Below are positions 537 through 61,400 of a stretch of DNA of 64,000 nucleotides, one piece after another. The notes beneath the pieces are model-generated. The model saw nothing but the letters and a program-made list of their open reading frames with translations. It ran no database searches and had not been told where the DNA came from. Source of the stretch: Tubiluchus corallicola (taxonomy: Eukaryota; Animalia; Priapulida); the NCBI GenBank assembly GCA_030141605.1, contig JAQGDQ010000125.1:496001-560000 (forward strand), given 5' to 3'. Each line of letters opens with the position of its first letter. Positions within the stretch are counted from its first letter, which is position 1. The translations under genes were made by a program, and so were the position numbers.

Positions 537-734
537 ATGCCAGCGCAAAGTGAAGTGTTTCCGGCGTTTGCTACACCTCTGCGTTCTACTACATTGTCCA
601 GAAAGAAATCACCTGCGTTAAATGTAACTCATTCTTTACCTAGAAGTAGCAAAACGCAGACTTTGGATCGCACCAAAAAGATAAGAAACAAAGAGTTTTA
701 CTTGCAATACGAAATAGCACTTGGTTATTTACAG
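537..734 (+). CDS. Putative alternative first coding exon of cytohesin
   Basis: ATG-initiated 66-codon ORF ending at a CAG|GTATGA donor in phase 0, which matches the phase-0 acceptor at 5710 (QLKYELAEV...). It has no similarity to the canonical cytohesin N-terminus. Confidence 0.55.
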
Positions 735-3700
735 GTATGATTTAAAGCGAGATAATTTACCTTTTCAGCATTTTTTGCATCACGTTGGGTCACTTTTAAT
801 ATTTTCGAAACTTTTATCCACTTGTAATACTTTTAAAGAATCGTGAATGCCTTCCTTTCTTAACAATTATATGTTGTATATAGTCTTTTTATTGTACCAG
901 ACATACATACATGATTATTTTTTCGCCTAGTCATTTGTGAATATGTCATCCTCGAAATTCGGCTTGAATATTTTTAATATACTAGATTTTTTTTCGTTTA
1001 TTAACATTAGCATTGTTTGCTTTTTTGGCTAATCCAAATTTTAAGTTTATGAAACTCGTGTTGTAATGTATATTTTATGAACATGCAGAATTTTCCAATT
1101 CGTTAATAATATGCACACTATCGCTCTAAATGTAACATTGCGTATATTGCATTGGCCCCTACCTTACGCGCTTGTAAACTTACAACAGAGAGCTGTCACC
1201 TGTCTGGATCAGCAGAAGTTTAAGTGCTTTGGCATAATGCACCATAACAACGTAATTGTTAGTAAGCCAGCTATTTAGATTAACCACCAAATGTCAACAA
1301 CAGCTTGGAATTTATGAAAAGCGATGCCAACTCCTTCCTTGGCGGCTCATCTTTGATTCGCTGCCCATCTGTTATCAGTTAAATTTAGTGTTTAAGGGTT
1401 GGATTCTTTTTTACGGTGTCATTAGAAGTAGTGGAGTTACGCGGGTAGGGTATGATATCCCATAATAAATAATATCGTGTAGGAGAAGAATATTGTACAC
1501 GCATGCTGGTTTTATAAATCTTTCCCACGGTTTCACTTTCTGATATTCTTAATAGTTTAGTGCCAGTTTAAAACTAAAGTACTATCGATGATTTTGGGTA
1601 TAGAAATTATAACCATTATTTTAAAGAAGCTATTTGAATTTTTAATATTCTGTGCAATTTATGTAATATTTTATGTTCAACCTTTCAAAATTAGTTCTGT
1701 TCTCGTTTTATGACTTAATTCTATGTTGCTGAGCATGCCACTCCGGTCTCTACTTCTGTTCCCATGCTCGACTTGGTACTTAGACTTTGATAGACATTTT
1801 TTAGCTTTGATACTTAAATTTAGTTCATGATCAGTCTAGCAAATCCCGCTAATCTTAACAAGGAGTAAAAATTGCTAGCATAATAAACCGAGACTAAGAC
1901 GCAGACAAACAAATATCCGTACAAAAAATAAACTAACAAACATGTGACAAGCAAGTGATGGATAGACGAAAATAACAGATTCTTGTTTGATTTTTTTGTA
2001 AAAAAATATTACTTTGATTTAATTATTAATATTGTAGCTACAGTTGTTCTTCATTTACTACATTACCTCGGAAGTAAAATTTTGTTCGCATGTTTTTGAG
2101 TAAACCCCATTGAATGCCAAAAAACTGATGTGTGTCAGAGGCAGATTATATTTATACACGTGTAATGAATTATAATATCATTTAGCAGTTGCAGGATGTA
2201 GCAGATTTCCAGGCGACTTTGATTGATATTCATGCAGCAACAAGGTCATCTCCCTGTATAGGCGCAGTAATTTCAGCATCTCAATGAATATTTGAATTTA
2301 TTAATATTCTTGCATCTGAACCTTGTCTCCAGTTTACTGAGTACATCCAGTTTTAAAATTATTTATATATTAGCTTCCAGCTATTTTCATCGCGTAGTGC
2401 AAAATCTTTAAAATGGCAATTTAATGTAATATGATTTTTGTAGCCTAAGGATCTACTATATTACTTTCTCATGTACAAGTAATTCTGCCTTGACACCTCT
2501 GACATAAGAACTGCACATTTTGTTTTAACTGCATGAAGAAAGGTAAATTTTGAATTTTAAGTTAAGAAACAACAGTAACTTTTACTTCTCTTTAGCTCAC
2601 TTCTTTGCGTTTGAAGTAATGATGTTTAGCAATGGAAGGTATAACTTACTTCAGCCTATTTTCTTCAAAGTAAAATGGATCTTGTAAATAAACTCCCAAA
2701 CGTCTCGAATAGAGCGCCAAGTGCCTTGTATATGATCGCGTGCAGAGTATCGTATTTACTGATTAGCGTTAGTATTTGTAATCTTTTCTACTAGAGCTCT
2801 CGCTTTTATAACTCCGTGGAGGTTTAACTGACAGATGCAGCTAGATCAAGTAAAGCAAAAAAGAAATCCCAAACCAGCTAGATCAAGTAAAGCAAAGAAG
2901 AAATCTCAAACCAACTACTGATCCTACTGAAGCTATTCTTACTGAGTGGATTTTTTCAATTAGAGTTTCTGAAAGCACCAACTTCGTTTCCCTTTAGTAT
3001 CTGATGATCAACCATTGATAACCAGGCATGTTCTTCAGCATCAGGTCGACATTTAAATTTGATCAACATACAACCTTGCCGGGAGTGGTACTCAGTGACC
3101 AGTAATTACCGAGGTTTTGTGGAGAAGGACGTGGATTTATGTTCTTCAGCGTATAAAAGCAGTTGATTCGGATTTATATGTCAAAATTAATTGATGTCAG
3201 TAGTTGCATTTGTAAACTGACGTGGTTTCTATGTCTGCGATCTGCTGTTTTATCCACTGACATTGCCTTATTGGGGCGCACAGCCAGGTGTGCAAATTAG
3301 ATTTTACAACCCTTGCCGTGGTATTTCATAGAGCGTTACAGGTGCACTAGATTCCAATGTCTGTTTTGTAATTCAGTGTCATCTTTTTATGTTTTCGGCA
3401 ATATAGCATTAATGGTACAGTTTCACATAAAGCGTTTTTATTGGCAGGAAGTTTGGTAATGCATATTAAAATTATAAACTACTGAAAATATACTTTTTCC
3501 AGTTTTACTGCATACAATTTGCAGTTAGTGCAAAATTCGTTCCAATATCAGCAAATATTTTATTATCGTCATACCAAAATGGACACCTTTCAAATGAAAA
3601 CTGTCCATCCCTTTTTCTAATGTTGTTTAAATGCCCATTGTTGACCTTTGTGCATTGTTTAGTTATCTCAAGTTTGTTGTGGGAACATTGCTAAATTTTT

Positions 3701-6700
3701 CTTCTTTGCGTTTTCTCCAGAGCTGAGAGCTTTCCGCTCTAGACTAATTGGTGTCTCGCACAGTAGCCTGTCCTAGCTTCGTGTAATTACATCCATTCCA
3801 TACTCACGAAGTGCATCTACAACTTGAGTTTAATTTAATATTATTTCTTAGAGAGTTTTTATCCCAAGAGCTAAAAACCCGAACTTGCTTCTAATAATTG
3901 GCAGTCTACAAGCATAGAACTTGTTACTTATGACCAAAGATAACGATCACATTTATAAAGAATAATATTCGCATGAAGGCGTTGACATTTTCATTTCTAC
4001 AATCAATACGTTGTTGACCTTTCAAGCGCTTTGAATAGAAGCTTGTTACCGGCCACTTGATACAGGTATGCTAATACTGCTGCTTACTGTAAATTCTTAT
4101 AATCATTTTGTATCTCAGACATATACAGTTCGTATTCTTGACTGACAATATAAGAATATCTAAAAACCATAAGGTAGACGGTGCCAACAAGCCGTGTAAT
4201 GTGAAGATTAGATCATACTCCAGGACGTCCCGGGTCTAAACCCAGTAAAAACATTCTAGTTTAAAAACTTGAATTAGTGGTAGCACAAAATTGTCCTGCC
4301 ATTCATTGTTTTAGGCACAGGCTGAATTTCGCAAAAAATTCCAAGTGCTAGGTTTCCAGGCCGAGTATCTGTATGAGCTTTTGATGTTTGTCTGTTGTAT
4401 ATTTTTTTGAAAACGCTTCACATTTTTTAACTCTTAGAGCTTTTTCGTTTCAAGAATTTGACGAGAGACTATTACTATCTGTTTTACAACATTGCCACTA
4501 GCGTATCACGCATTTTACGTTTAAACAAGGCGTTATATGCAGGGTGCATAAGATTATGGATATGTATAAAATAAATAAAATAGCTTATTTTATGGATTTT
4601 TGAAATTTTATTTTATGGATATCAATAAAATAAAAAATATACTATATCTGGAATGAGATGCCCATGGGGAAATGTAAAAACGGGAGTGCTTGAAACGTAA
4701 TCTCTGGTGGCTGGGTCTCTCTCAGTTATTTTCAGGCCGAACTCCAGCTCATGCTTTGGTTGAAACTTCGCCATCTTGATAACAAAAAGACAATGAGAAA
4801 AAAACAATGTAAAATAGCAAATCCGGAAATGCGCTTTTGTTGGTTTGTTTTCTTTCTCTTTCTCTTCTAACGTTCATTTTCAGTGTTGCCAATACTTACA
4901 ACTCGTTACTTTGTACAAAAAATCACAAAAAAATTTTTTTTATTTTATGCATTTCTTATTTGATGGATTTTTCAAATTTCATTTTATGGATTTTTGGTCT
5001 TATTTTATGGATATCCATAATCTTATGCAGCCTGGTTATATGTCTTCCGTTTTTATATTATTGGGCATAACATCAGGAACGTGCTCCATAATGTTATTAC
5101 TTACGGTTGGCACAGTGTTGTGCTTGAGCTCACTAAGGTGCAACGAAGCAACATATTGTCACTGTACGTGTGCTATCCCTAGTAAATGTTGTACAGCGTG
5201 AGGGACTGTACAAACATTGTCAGAAACTAGTAAGATTCTAACATACATTAAAATTATATTTTTGATATTTTAATTGTTTGTCTGGTTTTATGAAAAGACT
5301 TTCTAAGTTCTAATTGCGTGAATGCTTAAATAAAAAGCTATAATGTACAGATTGTTTTCACTGTTTGGCTTCACGATTTTGAGTAACCTTCACCTTTGAC
5401 ATTGAAAACTAGTTAGTGTTCAGTATAAAATAAGACAGAAGTAGAAACTAGAAACATAGTGTGGCTTCTGTCGAGTTTAATGTAGGAGTGTCAGGTAGTT
5501 CTTCGCATTCATTTAACCTTTATTTTCATTTGATTTTTAGGATTGTATAATTTGTTTTGTATAATAGTGTAATATGACGTCAAGTGAGTTACTCATCACG
5601 TTTGGAGTAATTCATTGCTTCTTTGTTAGTGAAATGATTATGATATTCAGTACTCCCAGTACAAATTATGTGATGTTGTTAATAATGATTTTATTTTTTA
5701 CTTTTGCAGCAACTCAAGTATGAATTGGCGGAGGTTACTCGAGAAATGGAAGCTGCGGATGTGTCCGAGTAAGTTTATTTAAAATTCATTTCAAAATGTT
5801 TACTTATTTTAAAAAAAACTTTTATTTGCAGGCATAAGGCAATTTTACCGTGAAATGAATGCATACATGTTTTTTTATTGTTTCGGCATCAATTGTACCA
5901 TGAAAATGAATGTACACATGATTTTTTATTGCTTTGACATCAATTATACCATGAAAATGAATGCATACATGATTTTTTATTGTTTTGGCATCAATTATGC
6001 CATGAAAATTAATGTACACATGATTGTTTTATTTTTATGGCATCAATTATACCTCGAAAATGAATGCACACGTGATTTTTTATTGTTCTAGCATCAATTT
6101 AAATATTATTTTCAGGATAAATGCTAATAATGTTTAGGTATAATGCTCAGTATAAATTTTTGTTTTATAAAAAAGTTGAATTGTGTGTGTTTAGGAAGGA
6201 CAATCCCAAGGCCAAGCAGACATCTATTGGTCGAAAGAAGTTTAATATGGACCCTAAAAAGGTGTTGTACAATTAGCCATATGCGCTTATCATTTTTACA
6301 GCCTGAATGTTTTTTGTGTAATAGATCGAAAGTGTAATAGTTTTGTAGTTTTGTGTATCATCTATTTCTATTTGCACGTTGCTGATTCACACACTGCCTC
6401 ATGGTTTTCAAGTGCCATTTTTAGGCTGAAGTAATTACAATGTAATTATTTTGAGTCTGAATGTATTGATGTAACTAATTATACTTTTTCCTAATTTTAA
6501 AATTAAAATTATTAGCTTTAATGAAATCTCAAGCGAATGTGCAACTATTAAATAGGTTAAATGTGATAACTTATGTGTGTTATCCCCTATTGTTTACAGG
6601 GAATTGAATATCTTATTGAACATGGCTTGCTGGAGGATTCACCCGAGGATGTGGCTGGATTTTTGTTCAAGGGAGAAGGTCTCAATAAAACGGCTATTGG

Positions 6701-9700
6701 GGAATATCTGGGAGAGAGGTAAAGCAAATTATTAGTACCGTGTGGATGAAAATGTACCGGCACAAATAAGTTGTTGCTTGTTCAAAAATTTAGGTTTTGA
6801 AAGAAGCATTTTTTTTGTCCTGAAAGTTCAAAAACACTATTGACTGTTGTGTTGCTTAAAAATCAGTTTTTATCAGTTTTTGGTATGTTCATTCATGTGG
6901 GCCAGCCACTAGAATTTTTTGACAGGTGGTCTTGTACCCTTCCCTGGGAAGGAAGTGTTCCTAAAGAGCAGATCTGATTATTTGATAAGGAGGTATTGGA
7001 TAAGGCTGTGTAACCATGCAAGTAAATTTCCTTTGTGTAGATTGCAAAACCCACAGCTGGGTATTTTTGTGTAGTTATAATCACTTACCGCTGGTTTACA
7101 AATTTGGTGTAATAGATTAATTTTGGACCTTGTAATTTCCTCAAATGGATTTGAATGTTGTTATTTTTGCATTTATTGCAGGCATGATTTCAACCTGGCA
7201 GTACTGCAGCATTTTGTAGCATTGCATGAATTTGCAGACATGATATTAGTACAAGCATTAAGGCAGTTCCTCTGGAGCTTTCGTTTGCCTGGTGAAGCAC
7301 AGAAGATTGATCGTATGATGGAGGCTTTTGCACAACGTTACTGCCAGTGCAATCCTGGAGTATTTACATCTACAGGTATAGGACCGATGCATTCACCCAG
7401 TGCACAAATACTATCTTAGCTGTGTATTATGTATTAGCAACTTTGGAACATAATATTCACAATGATTTTTGGTTTTTAATTATGAACTCGGCAGATGGAT
7501 TAGTAAGCAGAACTAAGCAGATGAATGAATTTCCTGAAGAAAACATCATGCATTACACTTCTGTAATCTTCAGTGATGTTAGCATTGGGCTCTGATGAAA
7601 TGTATGAGGCGTGAGGACAGTAATATACCCAAGTTTCTGAGAAGATTACAAAGTCCTATTCATTGGTTTTTTTTTAAATTTACTATTAATTAATGAATAA
7701 TTAATAATTAACTTAGTAAGTGTTATGTTTGTGTATGGGGTGTAAGTGATTGTGTTTAATAGGATTATAAATGATGAAATAATGTTAGTGGATAATTAAT
7801 GTTTATCATAGATACGTGCTATGTGCTTTCGTTTGCGGTCATCATGCTCAACACTAGCCTCCATAATCCTGCTGTTAAGGATAAACCAACTGTGGAGAGG
7901 TTCATCCACATGAATCGTGGTATTAACGATGGAGGAGACTTGCCCGATGAGCTTCTCATGGTTCGTATAATTATTTTGTATGATTTGTATCTTACGTTAA
8001 GCAAGAAGTATGGTAAGATTGGTCACTTTTGAATAAACCTTTGAAAATTGTTGGTGAAGAAACGGGAGGCTTTCCCATTTAAAGATCTTTTTTGAAACCT
8101 GCAAAGTTATGCATAAATAAGGCTTTGAAGTGCTCTTTAAAATTCATCTGCCTAAAACATAAAAATGAAAATACTTTGTTTTGAGTTTGGTGAGTACATT
8201 TTGGGAGTCAGTCATACAAGTTATTTGATGAATCTTTGCTAGTTTTCAGATGTTTTTGTAAAACTATGACCCATAATTTGTCAAGAGTTTTGCTGCTCTC
8301 TCTGTCACTGTAATTCATAAAAAGTTTTTGCGTTTGTCAGAGTCTTTATGAGAGCATTAAGAAGGAACCATTCAAGATTCCTGAAGATGATGGGAATGAT
8401 CTGATGCACACCTTTTTTAATCCAGATCGTGAAGGGTGGCTGTGGAAACAAGGTATTTAAAATATATTATTAAATGTTAATGCAATGTCAATACAGAGGT
8501 GATAATTGGGATATTATAGTTTAGTAGTATTTTTATACGAATAAGGTTTTCAATCTTGTAGTTTTTTATAGTGCAATCTGTCTAGAGCTGTTGATCTTCT
8601 TTACCAGTCAAATTTCCTTTTAATAGTATTCATGTATTTGTTTTTCTTGAAATTACTTGCTGACTAGGAATAGTGAATGGTAACTGCTAATGACAATGTG
8701 TTTTTTTAATTTCATTTGCTAATTATGCTGAAAATGCCAGGCGGTAAGTCTACAAGTTGAATGATAGTGATTCATTTTGCATGCCCATTTAATTCTCTGC
8801 ATGCATTCTTATATACCAGTACATCCCGTTAGCAACATGCATTTTTATATATCATTACACCCCATTAGCAACATAAGTTCATTTTTTAGTTTTTTAATAT
8901 CCGTTACTTATTGTTTGAGGTTATCTGTCACTGCCATTTTTAGTGATAAAATTAACTTATTTGTTTTACTAGTTTTAAAACTCTACCCAAATTTGTCACT
9001 GCCATTATTTGTGAAACTGCATTTTTTGTCCAGTCCGCTGTTGCTTGTTGCTTAATCCTAAACAGTTTTTAGGTTTTATGGTTCACTTGCAGTTTGAGAT
9101 GTTACAGACTGTGTCTACATTATGAAACTTGTTTTAGTGTCTTTTGCGTCCATTATAATGTTTACTGTGCTAACCTTTTTTGTTTATCCATGTAACCATA
9201 CTAAGCTATGATACTCCCGTCCATCAAGCATTTCTAGGACATGCCAGATAATTATAGCAGTGTCAGTCTTACTAATTATGTGAATTTGCATCAGCTGCAA
9301 TGATTTATTTTGTTAATAATAATAAAAAAATAAATTAATTATTTAAACAATTTGAAACATTAAAAGAAATCAATTTTGGTTCATTTTCTAGTGCTAGCAG
9401 CATTCTTTGTTGTATATTATGTGTAACAGGTAACAATTTTTGCTCAACCGTAGTGTCAGTTTGTAATTCTCGCACAAGTAGTAGAGACTGTGTCGTGTAG
9501 CATTTGCGTATGTCGTGTAGCATTTGCGTAAAACTTGATAAACTGATCCTTGTCATAATATAATTTGTGAAACTGAAAAATGCTACTTCCAATGTTTTAC
9601 AAAAGGTTTGGTGTCAATTTTTCAATGTCACTGCTACCTCAAGTGTTTCTTTATTTTTTTAAAAAGTGTGATTTCTGTTACATGGCATATTTAAGAAGTT

Positions 9701-11898
9701 GTATTGATAAACATTTATTTGGTACGTTTCACTTTGGCTCATTAGCTATTCTAATTACAGGCGGTCGTTACAAGAGCTGGAAGCGTCGTTGGTTTATCCT
9801 TAATGACAACTGCCTTTACTACTTTGAATTCACTACGGTGAGTAATTCTACAGTGTAAATGTTGTCTTTGTGACAGTGTTGTTTGATGCTCTAACAGGTC
9901 TGACATTTTTGTATCTGCAAATTGTTTTATTATTTTGTAGAACAAAAGTTGTCAGTCACACTGTATAATCGGGGTCACTTGTAACTGTGTATGGTGTTTT
10001 TTAAATTGAACAAGAAGAGGTTGTAATTTCCAAGGGTTGTTTTCTTTATTTTGACTATTTTTATGCTTATAGTGCAATAAACCTTCGTCATTCTTGTCCA
10101 GTAATCCTAAAAACATTTTTTGTCTGGTTCATTTATAAAACTAGTGCTAGTTATTTAGTCAAGAAAATGCTCATCAAGCATTGTGACTTTCACAGGATAA
10201 AGAGCCAAGGGGAATAATTCCATTGGAGAATGTACATGTTCGGGAAATCCAGGATCGCAACAAGCCCAATTGTTTTGAGTTATTTTCTGTTGACAATGAG
10301 GTTATTAAAGCCTGTAAAACAGATTCTGAGGGAAAAGTTGTCGAAGGTAAGTATTGCTGTCTGTACGAGAATGAGTTCAGTTTTAACCATGTGTAAGTGC
10401 AATGCCTATGATTAAAAAGAAAAATTTTGCAAAAGCAAAAGAATGACGGCTGTTGTTATCTTAATTTGATTCTTGCTTGTGGGAAGAACTGATTATATCC
10501 TGCCAGATTAATTTTGATTTTACGTATAAAGAAGTAATATTCATGTCTTAAATAAACAGTTCTGTTGTGCTAATACAGACTATTAATACAGCCACTATTT
10601 TCTAATACAAGTGAAGACTTTTAAACTAGTCTTGGCTGTAAAATATTCATCACATCTCTACCATTCAACCATTATGGTTTTGTACAATCTTCTATGATGA
10701 TAGCATTGGGCTCTGATGTCAATGTCATGAGGACAGTAATTTATACCCAAGTTTCTGAGAAGATGTTTTATTGTTCAGATCTTAAAGTCAGTGTGCATTT
10801 GCATACGTCACAAGCTCGCTCGATCATGTTCATTCATTCAGTCTTTTTTATAGGTTGTATTTCCTTGTCTTCAAGTCAAGTCTTTGAGTTCTTGTGCTTT
10901 TTCAGTAATGTGGCAAATGAAAATTAAATTACTAGCTTCGTACCGAATTGCCTTTCACTATTCACCCGTCACACCCTCAGGTTCTTATTTGTGTATGAGT
11001 CACCTATGGGGGATTTACATGAAAACTTTTACATTAGCATTTTTTAAACATTTTTTGGTAACAGAATAGGTAAGAAAACAATGCAAGAATATGAAACTTT
11101 TTTTCATCTTCAGGAATAGGCTACTGAATGGATAAAATTAGCTTCATACATAATTTTATATTGCAAAACCACTATGTAGTTCGTACCACACACAGGTTGA
11201 TCAGGTGTTCGGTTGATCAGGTGTAGAGTTGACCAGTGGTAGAATTTTTAGGAACTGATTTGTGCACAAATTGATGCTGAAATCAAGTTGGAGACCACAG
11301 TTATGCAATTTTGCTGTGCTCTTTTGGCAGTGTATATCGCCACATTGCAAACAACTTGACAATATCAAATGAAATTAGATAGTGCTGCGCTTTGCATGGT
11401 CTGCAACAGCTGTGACAAAATTGTTTGTTTTCCAGGTAAACATACAGTGTATAGAATGTCGGCTACTACTAGTGAGGAAAAGGATGAGTGGATCAAGTGC
11501 ATCAAGTAAGTTTGTTGGAATTTTTTTACTTCTGATATTGTGGTATCTTTGTTTGTTTAAAAAAAACTGTTTAGATGTAAATCTTAGATGATGATAATCT
11601 GATTGTTTGTTACTTATGCTTATTTCATATTTGATGAAGTATGTCCTTAGTTTTTATAGAATCGCTGCAATCATCTGTCTCCTTTTTTCCGACCAGCTCT
11701 TGCTATTTTGCCTTTACCTTACTACTGCTTGTGATCTAAAGAAAGTGATTAGTATTTATTAGAAAGAACTGAAATTTAACTACTATGTTCACTGGTGTTT
11801 TTAGGGCATCTATCAATGAGAATCCATTCTATGATATGTTGGCAGCAAGAAAGAAGAAAGCTCAACACAAAAATACTGTCAAAAGTACAAAGGGATAA
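537..11898 (+). CDS. CYTH: Cytohesin/steppke-family Arf-GEF (coiled coil-Sec7-PH-polybasic), spliced, about 429 aa
   Basis: Exons: 537-734 (putative alternative first exon), 5710-5768, 6195-6261, 6600-6718, 7182-7375, 7812-7960, 8341-8452, [8741-8743 microexon], 9761-9837, 10196-10346, 11436-11505, 11805-11898. All introns are GT-AG with consistent phases, 1290 nt without the microexon. Motifs: [30 protein letters not shown] (Sec7 glutamic finger), [12 protein letters not shown] domain [19 protein letters not shown] and C-terminal MLAARKKK. Confidence 0.96.
2838..2912. repeat. Tandem duplication, 2 x 37 bp
   Basis: CAGCTAGATCAAGTAAAGCAAARAAGAAATCYCAAAC starts at 2838 and 2875. Confidence 0.85.
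3420..3900 (-). mobile_element. Highly degenerate LINE (RTE-like) AP-endonuclease remnant
   Basis: A frameshifted minus-strand translation reads [37 protein letters not shown], resembling the APE N-terminal pattern RIGTWNVRSL..KLAQV..EM.RY.LDI.GLSE. It has many stops and the boundaries are approximate. Confidence 0.35.
4540..5034 (-). mobile_element. Internally deleted hAT-type DNA transposon
   Basis: 24-bp TIR CAGG(G/C)TGCATAAGATTATGGATAT and perfect 8-bp TSD GTTATATG (4532-4539, 5035-5042). Subterminal TTTTATGGA repeats. The minus strand keeps a transposase-like start, [23 protein letters not shown]. Confidence 0.88.
5841..6100. repeat. Minisatellite, about 5 x 51 bp
   Basis: Unit is approximately AATTATACCATGAAAATGAATGCATACATGATTTTTTATTGTTTTGGCATC, starting at 5841, 5891, 5942, 5993 and 6045. 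Confidence 0.92.
7562..7650 (+). ncRNA. Intronic box C/D snoRNA, copy 1
   Basis: 10-bp terminal stem TGTAATCTTC/GAAGATTACA. C-like GTGATGT (7573), D' CTGA (7592), C' GTGAGGA (7611), D CTGA (7637). The D-box guide TATACCCAAGTTT is complementary to the conserved LSU rRNA segment ..CUUGGGUAUAGGGGCG. Confidence 0.85.
8741..8743 (+). CDS. 3-nt microexon (GCG) adding a third glycine to the cytohesin PH-domain beta1-beta2 loop
   Basis: Context is ...tgctaattatgctgaaaatgccag|GCG|gtaagt, in the intron between CAA G| (8452) and |GC GGT CGT (9761). Skipping gives KQGGRY and inclusion gives KQGGGRY. Confidence 0.9.
10687..10764 (+). ncRNA. Intronic box C/D snoRNA, copy 2 (paralog of 7562-7650)
   Basis: Stem ATCTTC/GAAGAT. 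Perfect C box ATGATGA (10694), D' CTGA (10713), C' ATGAGGA (10727), D CTGA (10755). Both guides (TAGCATTGGGCT and TATACCCAAGTTT) are identical to copy 1 while the spacers differ. Confidence 0.87.
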
Positions 11899-56604: not shown

Positions 56605-58446
56605 TGCAGTAATTTAAATATCAATTGTTATTTCAAACAAAGAAGTTTAGTTGAAATAAACTCTGACATGACCTGATGCAGCTGGATGCATTGTACTGTA
56701 GAGTCAGTGCCTCCTTTTTGACAACGTCTTCTTTCTTGGAGGAAGGTGTCATTCGGGTACTGTACAGTAGTATGTAGTCTTTAGTAGATTTTGTAAATAA
56801 GGTAAAATTGCTTTGAAGCATTTATACTTTTAGATAAAGTAATCACATGTAGGTAGTGCTGTCATTAAAGTAGCGCTTTAGCTTCCCCTTTTCAGTTTTC
56901 AGCTTTTGCTTCCCCTTTAAGACAAGTGGAGAAATAATTCAGATTTTCCTGATTGCATACTTTTATTTATATGTTCTAATGTGTATAAAACATTCCATGT
57001 CTAAAGGTTGTGATTTTAAAGTTGTAATTATTGTGAAGCTGGAATGGTGTAGGTGATATGATGCATTAATTGTTATAAATATGCGATGTATGTCTTCTTA
57101 AGTCATTTCTAACTTTTATTATGTGTTGTCGCATCGTGTCTTACCCTAATCATTCAAATGTAAGACTTAATCAATTGATGTACTTTTTATTATGGACTAT
57201 GATATACTAGATTATTTATTTTAGATTCTTTTTTATAATTTTAGAAATTATGCAATTGTAAACACATAATATTTCCAGTACTGGCAGCTATTTCATTAAT
57301 GATGTGCTCAGACTGTTCCATCCATATAATAATGTGTACTGTGCAGTGTATATTTATAAAAAGTGAATCTGTGGTTGTAAAGTTGTATTATTATTAAGAA
57401 AAATATCTAGTTTTTATAATGTAAAAATCGTGTAAATTTGTGGGCTTACACATTTTTAAGTAAGTTTCTTAATGGGGAACATTTAAATTTTATTGCAAAA
57501 TCAGATTTTAACATTCAGACATTCCAGTCTATAGCTTTAAGAGGAAATATAAGTTTTGCTAGTTCTATGACCAATGTTTAAATATCATGTAAATTACTGG
57601 ATTAGCTTTTTAAACATGTTAATTGACACAGAATGGTAATAAATTATTATTTTTATGGGTAATAGTTACTTTTCCGAAGTATTTTTAATCTTTTTCGCTT
57701 GGCAACTGTAATACACCTTAGCAATTTACCACTTGTTTTATTTGGCCTAATCTTTTAAACAGTTTAAATCAGAAAAAACTGGATCAAGAAATTTAATTCT
57801 CAATAATTTTGATACTTTTAATTACTGTTTGATTGACTATCAATAGTGATCTCAAACGTGATCGAACATTGTTTGTTTTTTGTTAATATTTACAAACATG
57901 GTGCCTGTATTAACAAAAATTGATTTGCCGGTACAGTGTGTACATGGGAAAATTAGCAACTTGAGCTTTAGCAAAACTTATAGATTTTAAAAAGAGAAAT
58001 TACTTGCAAAAATCAAGAGTAACAAAATATGAAACTGCTACACTCCCTTTGTGCGTTGTTTCTGTAAGGTTTAAACATTTGAAAAGGACCATTATGCTAA
58101 CTGTGAAGAGAGACAATGGAAGCGGTTACTCTGCCCTTCACTGAAATTTAATGTATCAAACAAGAAGCTTCTAGTTTTGATGATGATAGACAATTGGAGC
58201 AAGTTATTCTGCTAATTTTACTTTCCTTCATCTTTACCATTGTCTCCATATTCAGCAATCATCGAATCCATTGAGCTAACAGCTTTTCTATTTGAGTTGT
58301 TTCCACTGTAAAACACAAAAAAAAGAATGGATCAAATTTGTGATTCAAACATACACGAGTTTTCTAACACCTTCGTAATATAATATTGATAGACAAGTTT
58401 CTACATAAAATGTACTCTGGAGGTTTAGGTCTTCTTATTACAATAC

Positions 58447-61400
58447 TCACAATTTGTTGGTTGACACTGGCTCGTCAGGATCGTCAAAGAAATTAAGTAT
58501 TTCTTCCAGTTGTGCAGGTGTAAAATTATCATCATCTGCAGCAGGGGATGCTAACACAGTTGCATTTTCTCCTCCTTTAAAACTTATCTTCTTTGTCTTG
58601 TTTGCACTTTCACTAGTTTTCTTTGCATGAACAGGTGACTCTAACATCTGTTGGAGAAAGCCAAATGATCCCGTTTCAGGAGCATTGGTTTTGTCGTCAA
58701 AGCTGACTTTGTTCGTTCGTTTTTTCTGCCCCGTATCCATTTTCTTACTCAATGAAGCTGCACTGTTAACTTTCATGTCTAAATCTGCACTCAGGGTATT
58801 TCTCATGCCCTCATCATAAGAAGCGCGGGGAGAGGTTGATTTACGTATGACCGTGTCTTCGGTACTGGAGTCGCTGTCACTAGATCCAGATCTGACAACA
58901 TTGTGAGTTTCACACGTCTCGACTTCAACATCTGTGTCATCAGAGCCAGCTCTGGATGCTGGATTCAGCTTTTCCATTGAAATGCAACTCGCTTTTCCGG
59001 ATGATCGGCTGAGTTCTCCGGATTGTCTTCTGGACAAGTTCAGATCTTCTGATACAAGCAAGCTGTTACTACTCACTAAGCTCATGTTATCCATCTCCGG
59101 TGTAAGACTGGTGATGTCAGCTCTATCTACAGCATCAGCATCATTTTGCTGTCCCTCGTTCATGTCGTTCTCACATACAATTTCATCTTCATCACTGTCA
59201 TTCTGTTCTGCTAAAAAGTTTACAAGAAAGAGTGGAATAATTCATTTAGTACATTTTCGCCAATTGACTGTTCTAAATAACTAAAAAAATTATATGTGTG
59301 TACAAAACTTAAACTTACGATAACTGTTCGGAATAGCAAGATCCATTATGACTCTTAAATCTCGTACAGTTTTCTTATCACCATCAACAGCAGACAGCCA
59401 CTGCTTGCAAGCAAACTCATACTGCCTCTGTTCTGAAGCATCTACCACTATAACTTTTTCCAAGAACCATGCATGCCCTAGAAAACCATGGTTTTCAAAG
59501 TTACAACTGTCGGGATTTAGATCACGCTTTTTCATAATTTGATATTGTCATTTTCCAAATTCATTGTTACATTCAGTAAATAATTCTCTATTTTCAGACT
59601 TTGCCTAACAACTACTTGCAGGTTATTCTGTTTGCCAGTGTTATTTCAAAAGGGCATTCATTAAATTAAAATACTTACGTAATTCAGGACTATCATGCCC
59701 AATTCTGATAAGTGTTAACGGCCCAAGATGGAATCCGTTTATAGTAAATGTGTCAGTCTAAAATTAAAAATAACAACGTTTTCATCAGGTAAATAGGTGG
59801 TCTTGATAGGTGGTCGTAAATAGGTAGCGCTGTGTAAGGAACGCTACTTCATTGGGACTGGAGAAATTACTGAGAAATAAAATAAAATACAGTCCATCAG
59901 AAGTAGAACTCTGTTGGGAGATAATAAGAATTACGAAAGATCTGTTAAATGGAGTTATTTATATTATCTTGAAGAAACTATAATAAATGCGGTTGTGAAA
60001 TGAAACTTCAAGAAATGGTGTGCGATTATCCATGTGTTTAAAAAACTAACGATTCTACTTTTTCTGGTTTAATTTACTTGTGGGGACTACTAAAGTTGAT
60101 ACCTGTCCTTTACTGAACTTCCTTCGTTTCTTGCGATCGTTGTCTCGTAAACTATTTGTTAAAACAATTTTCTCAGAACGTCCTGTTTGTCCATACAGAA
60201 TGATGTGCACGTCAGTACGAGTTCCAGCTCCTATTTTTCTTCCCGTGGTCACTCGCATTTTGTATGTAGCTTTAGTGCCTTCATAGAGGATTGGTACCTA
60301 AAACATGGACAGGTGGTAGTACATGTAACTGCACTTGTACATGTAAGTACATGTATATGCACAGGTACATGTAATTGCATTTGGCATACAATTGTATCTA
60401 CGTATAGTAACTTGAAAAATAACTTTCAGTGTTAATTCGATGAGAATAAATGATCAAATTTTGAAATGAAAGGTAAGTAAAATGTATATAATACCTCAAG
60501 GGGATCTGTTTGAATTGAAATATCTTCCATTGTTCCCGTATACACCCATTTCTCTGTTTGCCTGGCAGCGTCTACCTGTCGTTTTAACATGCCTGGTGTG
60601 GCTGGGCGTGGTATCAGACGAGTGGGTTGGTCATGTGATCTCATGTTGTTCAGCAAAACCTCATCTTCGCTTACATCAACTTTGAGAATCTGCTGTCTAA
60701 ATAAAGACAGAGGGTAAGTGAGCGATTTGGAAGAAAATTGACACAACCCACTGTTCTTACATTGAGTAGTATGTATCTCATGTGATATCTACTATAATGA
60801 TCACAAACAGTTAAGAAATATTGCATCATCGAACTCGTCTGCCTTGTGTAATGGCTAAGGAAGAACTGTTAAAGATAGTGATCTTTAATAAGAGCTATAG
60901 ATTGGCGTTTTAGTGGTTGCTGCTACAAAAATACGTAGATCATTAATTTCCATCTGTATTATAAAGTAATACATATATAGTGTAATACATTATTTGCTTT
61001 CAGATGGTGGCTTAAGCTCAAAATTTGTGGGTTAATCCAAATGGGTTAGATCAACAGCATTTCAGTCCATATGTGCAACGACATGAGTAAAATACTAAAA
61101 TATATAAAATACTAAAAGAGAATCTCTAGGATTGAAATAACTTCAGTTATTTGAGGTATAGTCAGTCAGCTTGAAATGAGAAAGAGCAGGAGAGGGAGGA
61201 AAAAGACGAGGACACAACTCAAAGAAATTGCTGGAAGCACACAATTTGTCACTGAAATCACAGCACTAAATGGTTATATCAGTTGAAACCTGGGGAGCCA
61301 TTTCGTAAAAAGTGAAACATTTTTGTGACCGTACCTTAACCACTCTGGTAGACTAGATGGCATAGAAGATCCAGGTGGTGATGATATAGCTAACATGCCG

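What the first reader, a model, noticed from the sequence alone, without database searches (positions are those of the whole stretch)
8685..8803. 3-nt microexon encoding the cytohesin GG/GGG phosphoinositide-specificity switch, with its splicing code
Seen: AG|GCG|GTAAGT at 8741-8743 in the intron that splits the PH-loop glycines, so inclusion adds exactly one Gly. Branch-like TGCTAAT motifs lie at 8685 and 8717, TGC motifs at 8726 and 8735 directly precede the acceptor in place of a polypyrimidine tract, and two TGCATG motifs (8778, 8798) lie downstream. Established: in vertebrate cytohesins the di-Gly form prefers PIP3 and the tri-Gly form binds PI(4,5)P2 comparably; UGC near the 3' splice site is the SRRM3/4 (eMIC) signature and UGCAUG is the RBFOX site. 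Inference: this invertebrate keeps an ancient, probably neurally regulated lipid-specificity switch that gene predictors would miss.
Basis: partly seen in the sequence, partly recalled or inferred. Interest (0 to 1): 0.85.

Follow-up and report, generated by a model that had tools for sequence, protein, structure and literature searches.

The report
One-glycine splice switch in priapulid cytohesin
An intron of a cytohesin signalling gene, in what is likely a priapulid worm, holds a three-base segment between proper splice signals that would add one glycine to the protein's lipid-binding loop, likely the membrane-targeting switch known from human cytohesins, though its use in RNA and any nerve-specific control are untested.

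Summary
Observation confirmed. CAG|GCG|GTAAGT (8741-8743) lies in the phase-1 intron splitting the PH-loop glycines of an intact cytohesin; inclusion turns KQGGRY into KQGGGRY. A Gly-adding unit with such sites arose in 0.025% of resampled introns; branch, UGC and UGCAUG motifs are where stated. The host is likely a priapulid. No RNA shows inclusion: the one RNA-like run does not cover this junction. Neural control: mouse Cyth1/Cyth2 3-nt exons are classed neither eMIC-dependent nor neural and are 69-76% included in HeLa. 'Ancient and kept': none of the invertebrate-type (KQ) proteins among 264 with a readable loop has tri-Gly; instead scorpion, bivalves and nemerteans carry a 15-18-nt exon here and 17 unnamed loci a 12-nt candidate. 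So this intron is a long-lived microexon slot of changing length, and the 3-nt form is retained or convergent. I found no invertebrate case in print. The scan earlier noted the vertebrate exon in a shark. Verdict: likely real, new member of a known kind.

The parts
537..11898 (+). Cytohesin gene (short coiled-coil, Sec7, PH, polybasic tail); exons 537-734 (putative first exon), 5710-5768, 6195-6261, 6600-6718, 7182-7375, 7812-7960, 8341-8452, [8741-8743], 9761-9837, 10196-10346, 11436-11505, 11805-11898
   Evidence: Open frame of 430/431 aa; 70% identical to mouse cytohesin-1; Sec7 and PH Pfam matches; 5 exon joints seen in contigs of run X6. The first exon is inferred, no homologue found.
8341..8452 (+). 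Upstream constitutive exon, ends W-L-W-K-Q plus the first G of the Gly codon (phase 1)
8685..8691 (+). Distal branch-point-like TGCTAAT (CUAAY)
   Evidence: function inferred from the consensus in PMC8797185
8701..8717 (+). U-rich tract, displaced upstream of the UGC cluster, inside a 67-nt AG-free zone (8672-8739)
8717..8723 (+). Proximal branch-point-like TGCTAAT
8726..8737 (+). TGC motifs at 8726 and 8735, next to the acceptor (candidate eMIC/Srrm234 element)
   Evidence: 3 TGC in the last 25 nt against 0-2 at the 10 other acceptors of the gene; function untested
8738..8740 (+). Acceptor CAG
8741..8743 (+). 3-nt microexon candidate GCG; inclusion would add one Gly to the PH beta1-beta2 loop
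   Evidence: the only candidate of 3-33 nt in this intron with a full GTAAGT donor; inclusion not seen in RNA
8744..8749 (+). Donor GTAAGT, full consensus
8778..8803 (+). Two TGCATG (RBFOX-type) motifs at 8778 and 8798
   Evidence: RBFOX assignment is recalled knowledge, function untested
9761..9837 (+). Downstream constitutive exon, begins GC GGT CGT (G-G-R-Y-K)
   Evidence: PH match

Best explanation
The three bases GCG at 8741-8743 are likely a real alternatively spliced microexon of a cytohesin gene, and their inclusion would turn the di-glycine lipid-binding loop of the PH domain into a tri-glycine loop. Shown: the position, phase, splice signals and the one-Gly effect on the frame. Inferred from vertebrate and fly data: the skipped form binds PIP3 selectively and follows PI3K signalling, the included form binds PIP3 far more weakly and PI(4,5)P2 comparably, so it sits on the plasma membrane without a PI3K signal and activates Arf GTPases there. 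Inferred: the weak UGC-rich acceptor with strong branch points, strong donor and downstream UGCAUG pair makes inclusion depend on trans factors, plausibly Srrm234-eMIC and Rbfox; whether this is neural is open (about 40%). The intron is an old microexon slot that holds 9-18-nt exons in other protostomes.
For: Same intron position and phase as in vertebrates: a GAG insertion that encodes Gly requires phase 1 after G, and vertebrate gene models break at W-L-L-K-L plus one base (P0002, P0003). Gly-adding unit by chance 0.025%. Four separate motif features cluster around it and match the published layout for regulated microexons. Other protostomes have annotated skip and inclusion isoforms at this very joint, so the intron is known by annotation to host cassette exons; no xSKLS-type exon is present in this intron. 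PH pocket conserved with mouse cytohesin-1, including K-W-K-R-R-W with the arginine that corresponds to R280 (mapping by alignment). Tri-Gly engineered into fly Steppke lowers PIP3 binding. Cytohesin-1 Kd values: 0.033 vs 21 uM di-Gly, 3.0 vs 7.2 uM tri-Gly.
Against: No read or contig shows inclusion. No relative shows the same 3-nt unit: 0 of 48 intron-bearing loci (15 scored complete, 81 kb of intron) hold YAG-GNG-GTRAG, and the window intron has no BLAST match to them, though none is a close relative. 0 tri-Gly among 204 KQ-type proteins with a readable loop and 33 more, and 0 of 32 spliced or intronless loci. Lack of variants around the unit in runs X1, X2, X3 is not significant (P 0.09-0.28). 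The chance figure comes from one intron picked by a reader who scanned a whole window.
Confidence: 0.68

Rival explanations
1. Real exon, strictly neural and eMIC/Rbfox-driven, inherited unchanged from the bilaterian ancestor together with the vertebrate exon.
For: Same length, position, phase and G-N-G form as vertebrate GAG; eMIC-like acceptor and UGCAUG pair; neural microexons date to the bilaterian ancestor (PMC8797185).
Against: Mouse Cyth1/Cyth2 exons are 'ASE', not eMIC-dependent or neural; 66-93% inclusion of the CYTH1 exon in non-neural cell lines; only four eMIC exons are shared between fly and mouse; scorpion and spiralians share a different, 15-nt xSKLS-type exon here, which points to a longer exon in the protostome ancestor.
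Confidence: 0.2
2. Real exon that arose in the priapulid line independently of vertebrates, by replacement or shortening of the 15-nt protostome exon: convergence on the one-Gly switch. This is a version of the best explanation that differs in history.
For: A 15-18-nt exon with a shared x-[ST]-K-[LIF]-[SG] pattern occurs in an ecdysozoan (Centruroides) and in bivalves and nemerteans and is absent from this intron; lengths of 9 (P0099) and 12 nt (17 loci) show that the slot turns over; a Gly-only insert after G needs just G-N-G, an easy target.
Against: No invertebrate deuterostome, nematode or other scalidophoran intron was examined; 3-nt exons are missed by gene models, so they may coexist unseen with the longer exon (a weak GAG|GTG|GTAAGT sits in L061/L062). 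The two longer exons whose DNA I saw (L064, L007) use TCN for Ser, so an internal donor at Ser-Lys is not supported.
Confidence: 0.4
3. Chance or vestigial splice-like unit that is never included; the gene makes only the di-Gly form.
For: No RNA support; any YAG-NNN-GTRAG appears in 5% of resampled introns; the paralog's RNA contig is di-Gly; fly Steppke is described as di-Gly, with tri-Gly called a mammalian isoform, and no 3-nt step exon was found in two fly tables.
Against: It is G-N-G with a perfect donor, in the one intron where vertebrates have the same thing, with clustered branch, UGC and UGCAUG motifs; a decayed unit would not be expected to keep all of these.
Confidence: 0.18

Closest known systems
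3-nt GAG microexon of vertebrate cytohesin-1, -2, -3 (di-/tri-glycine PH variants; PMC6314551, PMC9104363)
   Same: Orthologous gene family, same intron position and phase, 3 nt, G-N-G, adds one Gly to the beta1-beta2 loop.
   Different: Sequence GCG, not GAG; loop context KQ-G(G)G-RY, not KL-G(G)G-RV; invertebrate host; inclusion and lipid effect not yet measured; common descent not established.
eMIC/SRRM3/4-dependent neural microexons (PMC8797185)
   Same: Very short exon, long AG-free zone, CUAAY branch points, UGC next to a weak acceptor.
   Different: No alternating UCUC tract (U-rich instead); tissue pattern unknown; the mouse counterparts of this exon are not in that class.
15-18-nt cassette exon in the same loop of scorpion, bivalve and nemertean cytohesins (RefSeq isoform pairs)
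   Same: Same joint, same phase, alternatively included, changes the same loop.
   Different: Adds 5-6 residues with a Lys rather than one Gly; absent from this intron; I found no paper on it.

Membership tests
Cytohesin (Sec7-PH Arf GEF) | Sec7 domain followed by a Grp1-type PH domain and polybasic tail | tested here: met
   70% to mouse cytohesin-1; Sec7 above cut-off; PH pieces just under cut-off as single exons
Cytohesin di/tri-Gly microexon | 3-nt G-N-G unit with AG/GT sites in the phase-1 intron inside the beta1-beta2 loop glycines | tested here: met
   vertebrate boundary from P0002/P0003
Cytohesin di/tri-Gly microexon | Both splice forms are made | tested here: inconclusive
   Run X6 contigs do not cover this gene's junction; contigs only, no raw reads
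Cytohesin di/tri-Gly microexon | The extra Gly shifts selectivity from PIP3 towards PI(4,5)P2 | not testable with these tools
   Inferred from PMC6314551 and the fly mutant in PMC4640550
Cytohesin di/tri-Gly microexon | Homology by descent with the vertebrate exon (unit conserved in intermediate lineages) | tested here: inconclusive
   0 of 48 intron-bearing loci with YAG-GNG-GTRAG, most partial, none close kin; longer exons in other protostomes
eMIC/SRRM3/4-dependent neural microexon | Cis layout: long AG exclusion zone, CUAAY branch point, UGC near a weak 3' site | tested here: met
   against the list; the UCUC-rich tract is not present
eMIC/SRRM3/4-dependent neural microexon | Neural-enriched inclusion that is lost without the eMIC domain | not testable with these tools
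   No tissue RNA; mouse counterparts are not eMIC-dependent
RBFOX-enhanced exon | UGCAUG in the downstream intron close to the donor | tested here: met
   two copies 35 and 55 nt after the exon; binding and effect not tested

The most novel reading that the evidence does not exclude
The intron inside the cytohesin PH lipid-binding loop is a bilaterian-wide microexon slot whose cassette has been swapped repeatedly (3 nt in vertebrates, 15-18 nt in scorpion, bivalves and nemerteans, 12 and 9 nt in other animals), and a priapulid has independently arrived at the same one-glycine PIP3/PIP2 switch as vertebrates, here under an eMIC/Rbfox code that the mouse exon lacks.
Probability: 0.3. Interest if true: 0.7.

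Novelty: new member of a known kind. Interest (0 to 1): 0.48.

Why it matters
The di/tri-Gly switch is treated in the papers I read as a mammalian or vertebrate feature. A protostome case makes two questions testable: whether the switch is older than the protostome-deuterostome split or evolved twice, and what the longer, lysine-bearing inserts in the same loop of molluscs, nemerteans and scorpions do to lipid choice. Microexons at equivalent positions across distant bilaterians are rare (four between fly and mouse). It is also an exon that gene models would likely miss.

Tried and rejected
No whole genome is held, so no genome-wide background or paralog intron could be read. Run search: no RNA holder listed; X6 (RNA by guess) has no contig over this gene's 8452/9761 junction, which proves nothing. 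Polymorphism test: none of 23 variant sites in the intron falls in 8492-8861, but P=0.09 (independent) to 0.28 (clustered) for the 8680-8810 stretch. A 15-nt xSKLS-type exon in this intron: not found among 12 relaxed candidates. Origin by an internal donor at AGT-AAG of the longer exon: not supported by L064 and L007. Tree was the quick version; the Priapulus row is long because its model is frameshifted, so I relied on local identity instead. First-exon homologue search found nothing. Rfam at gathering level: nothing. Papers: searches gave no invertebrate cytohesin microexon; supplements of PMC8042270 (fly) and PMC12626424 (zebrafish) had no step/cyth rows. Irimia 2014, Cronin 2004 and Torres-Mendez 2019 are not held; their supplements, above all the last with invertebrate microexon tables, may already list such an exon. 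No structure was predicted, as a model would not settle lipid choice.

Full report
The observation. All elements are at the stated places: CAG at 8738-8740, GCG at 8741-8743, GTAAGT at 8744-8749, TGCTAAT at 8685 and 8717, TGC at 8726 and 8735, TGCATG at 8778 and 8798. They lie in the 1308-nt phase-1 intron 8453-9760 of a cytohesin gene. The exon model gives open frames of 430 aa (skip, KQGGRY) and 431 aa (inclusion, KQGGGRY), 70% identical to mouse cytohesin-1. Five other joints of the model are seen in contigs of run X6. The acceptor is weak (50% pyrimidine in the last 20 nt), has 3 TGC in the last 25 nt against 0-2 at the other 10 acceptors, and follows a 67-nt AG-free zone; a U-rich tract sits at 8701-8717, so the tract is displaced rather than absent.

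Chance. In 20000 resamples of this intron a YAG-NNN-GTRAG arose in 5.2%, but one reading G-N-G, which alone adds Gly, in 0.025%. The paired TGCATG and paired TGCTAAT are each unlikely at window rates (4e-4, 9e-5; after-the-fact windows). Of 6 YAG-NNN-GTRAG on the + strand only this is G-N-G, and of 12 relaxed candidates of 3-33 nt in the intron only this has a full consensus donor.

Host. Over 133 residues of Sec7-PH linker the closest named protein is Priapulus caudatus cytohesin (129 identical; next 122), and the tail of the neighbouring crumbs gene is also closest to Priapulus (36 of 45; next 33). Crumbs is only 35-45% identical in its long exons, so the host is likely another priapulid or scalidophoran. 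The quick tree placed the window next to Priapulus but with a long, unreliable branch.

Expression. No RNA holder was listed. X6, RNA by guess and kept as contigs, does not cover this gene's junction. It holds a contig of a second cytohesin, whose variants also stand in DNA runs X1 and X2 at the depth of this gene, spanning the same joint in the di-Gly form. That says nothing about this copy. Inclusion is therefore not shown.

Relatives. Of 80 loci fetched (the best 80 of 166), 48 hold part or all of the intron (15 scored complete, 81 kb): none has YAG-GNG-GTRAG; two near-identical loci have a weak GAG|GTG|GTAAGT; 17 share a 12-nt candidate exon with third-position changes that would add A-G-G-R. 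The 32 spliced or intronless loci gave 28 GG, 2 GS, 2 longer inserts or other, 0 GGG. Among proteins, 207 of 420 held (many of the rest are crumbs-like) had a readable loop: 174 KQ-GG, 30 with longer inserts, 2 KL-GG, 1 KL-GGG (mouse), 0 KQ-GGG. A further 57 of 148 representatives gave 32 KQ-GG, 1 longer insert, 0 KQ-GGG, and 2 vertebrate-type KL-GGG. The longer inserts are 5 residues in Centruroides (SSKIS), Lineus, Tubulanus, Ruditapes, Mercenaria, Mya, Dreissena, 6 in scallops, 3 in P0099; several species have both skip and inclusion models. These sets are redundant and gene models miss 3-nt exons, so the zero is weak; the longer exons are positive evidence that the intron is a microexon slot well beyond vertebrates. 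The shared x-[ST]-K-[LIF]-[SG] pattern in a scorpion and in spiralians suggests (inference) a 15-nt exon in the protostome ancestor, which this intron lacks.

How it likely works. Skipping gives di-Gly; in cytohesin-1 this form binds the PIP3 headgroup at 0.033 uM and the PI(4,5)P2 headgroup at 21 uM, tri-Gly at 3.0 and 7.2 uM (PMC6314551 section 10), and the forms localise differently (abstract). In fly Steppke, whose loop belongs to the same invertebrate type, engineered tri-Gly weakened PIP3 binding (PMC4640550 passages). The same effect is inferred here. The cis layout fits that described for eMIC-dependent exons (PMC8797185 passages), and downstream UGCAUG as an RBFOX enhancer is recalled knowledge. 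Against a neural reading, table S2 of that paper files the mouse Cyth1 and Cyth2 3-nt exons under 'ASE', while Apbb1 and Itsn1 microexons are 'eMICdep', and inclusion in HeLa is 76% and 69%. I put real exon at about 0.8, real with lipid switch at 0.68, neural control at about 0.4 if real.

What is known. The vertebrate exon is established (PMC6314551: passages and sections 8, 10; PMC9104363 and PMC6724607: passages). Nine searches (listings and abstracts) and passages of PMC6938242 and PMC6727740 showed no invertebrate case; supplements of PMC8042270 and PMC12626424 had no matching rows; the fly sheet of PMC8797185 lists step only for longer exons. Three key papers were not held and may bear on novelty. 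The scan earlier noted the vertebrate exon in a shark; no look-alike of this DNA was noted.

Verdict. Observation confirmed; interpretation partly supported; new member of a known kind; interest 0.48. The bolder reading, a repeatedly refilled microexon slot with convergence on the one-Gly switch, stays open at about 0.3.

Noticed in passing
window 7565-7647 and 10686-10765 (+): Two related C/D-box snoRNA-like elements in cytohesin introns, matching Rfam SNORD88 at E 2e-5 and 2e-4 but under the gathering score; both have terminal stems and C, D', D boxes.
   Followed up: partly
runs X1, X2, X6 laid on window 8347-8399 and 9755-9837: A second cytohesin gene in the same genome (about 84% identical DNA, same depth as this gene), expressed with the di-Gly junction in X6. 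Its intron was not read.
   Followed up: partly
L003, L019, L024, L034, L037, L038, L042, L043, L045, L048, L058, L061, L062, L065, L071, L077, L079: A conserved 12-nt exon candidate (CAG..GTAAG) in the same intron that would add A-G-G-R and turn the next Gly to Cys; it resembles the start of the downstream exon and lacks the UGC/UGCAUG code.
   Followed up: partly
P0033, P0049, P0084, P0089, P0093, P0123, P0099, L064: 15-18-nt (and one 9-nt) cassette exons in the same PH loop of scorpion, bivalve and nemertean cytohesins, with skip and inclusion models; lipid effect apparently unstudied.
   Followed up: partly
window 537-734 (+): Putative first exon of 66 codons that would replace the usual N-terminal coiled-coil start; no homologue found, no RNA joint seen; another first exon may lie outside the window.
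   Followed up: partly
window about 28800-56604 (+): A crumbs gene (EGF repeats, laminin-G domains, tail ending PPPEERLI) downstream of cytohesin.
   Followed up: partly
window about 58400-60800 (-): Exons of a further gene on the minus strand that look like PLAT/LH2-domain segments (recalled resemblance; one ORF tested gave no Pfam match).
   Followed up: no
window 9896-9959 (+): A weak hairpin match to mir-153 (E 0.33, far under threshold); likely chance.
   Followed up: no
window 5837-6091 (+): A tandem array of about 43-nt imperfect repeats in the intron before exon 6195.
   Followed up: no
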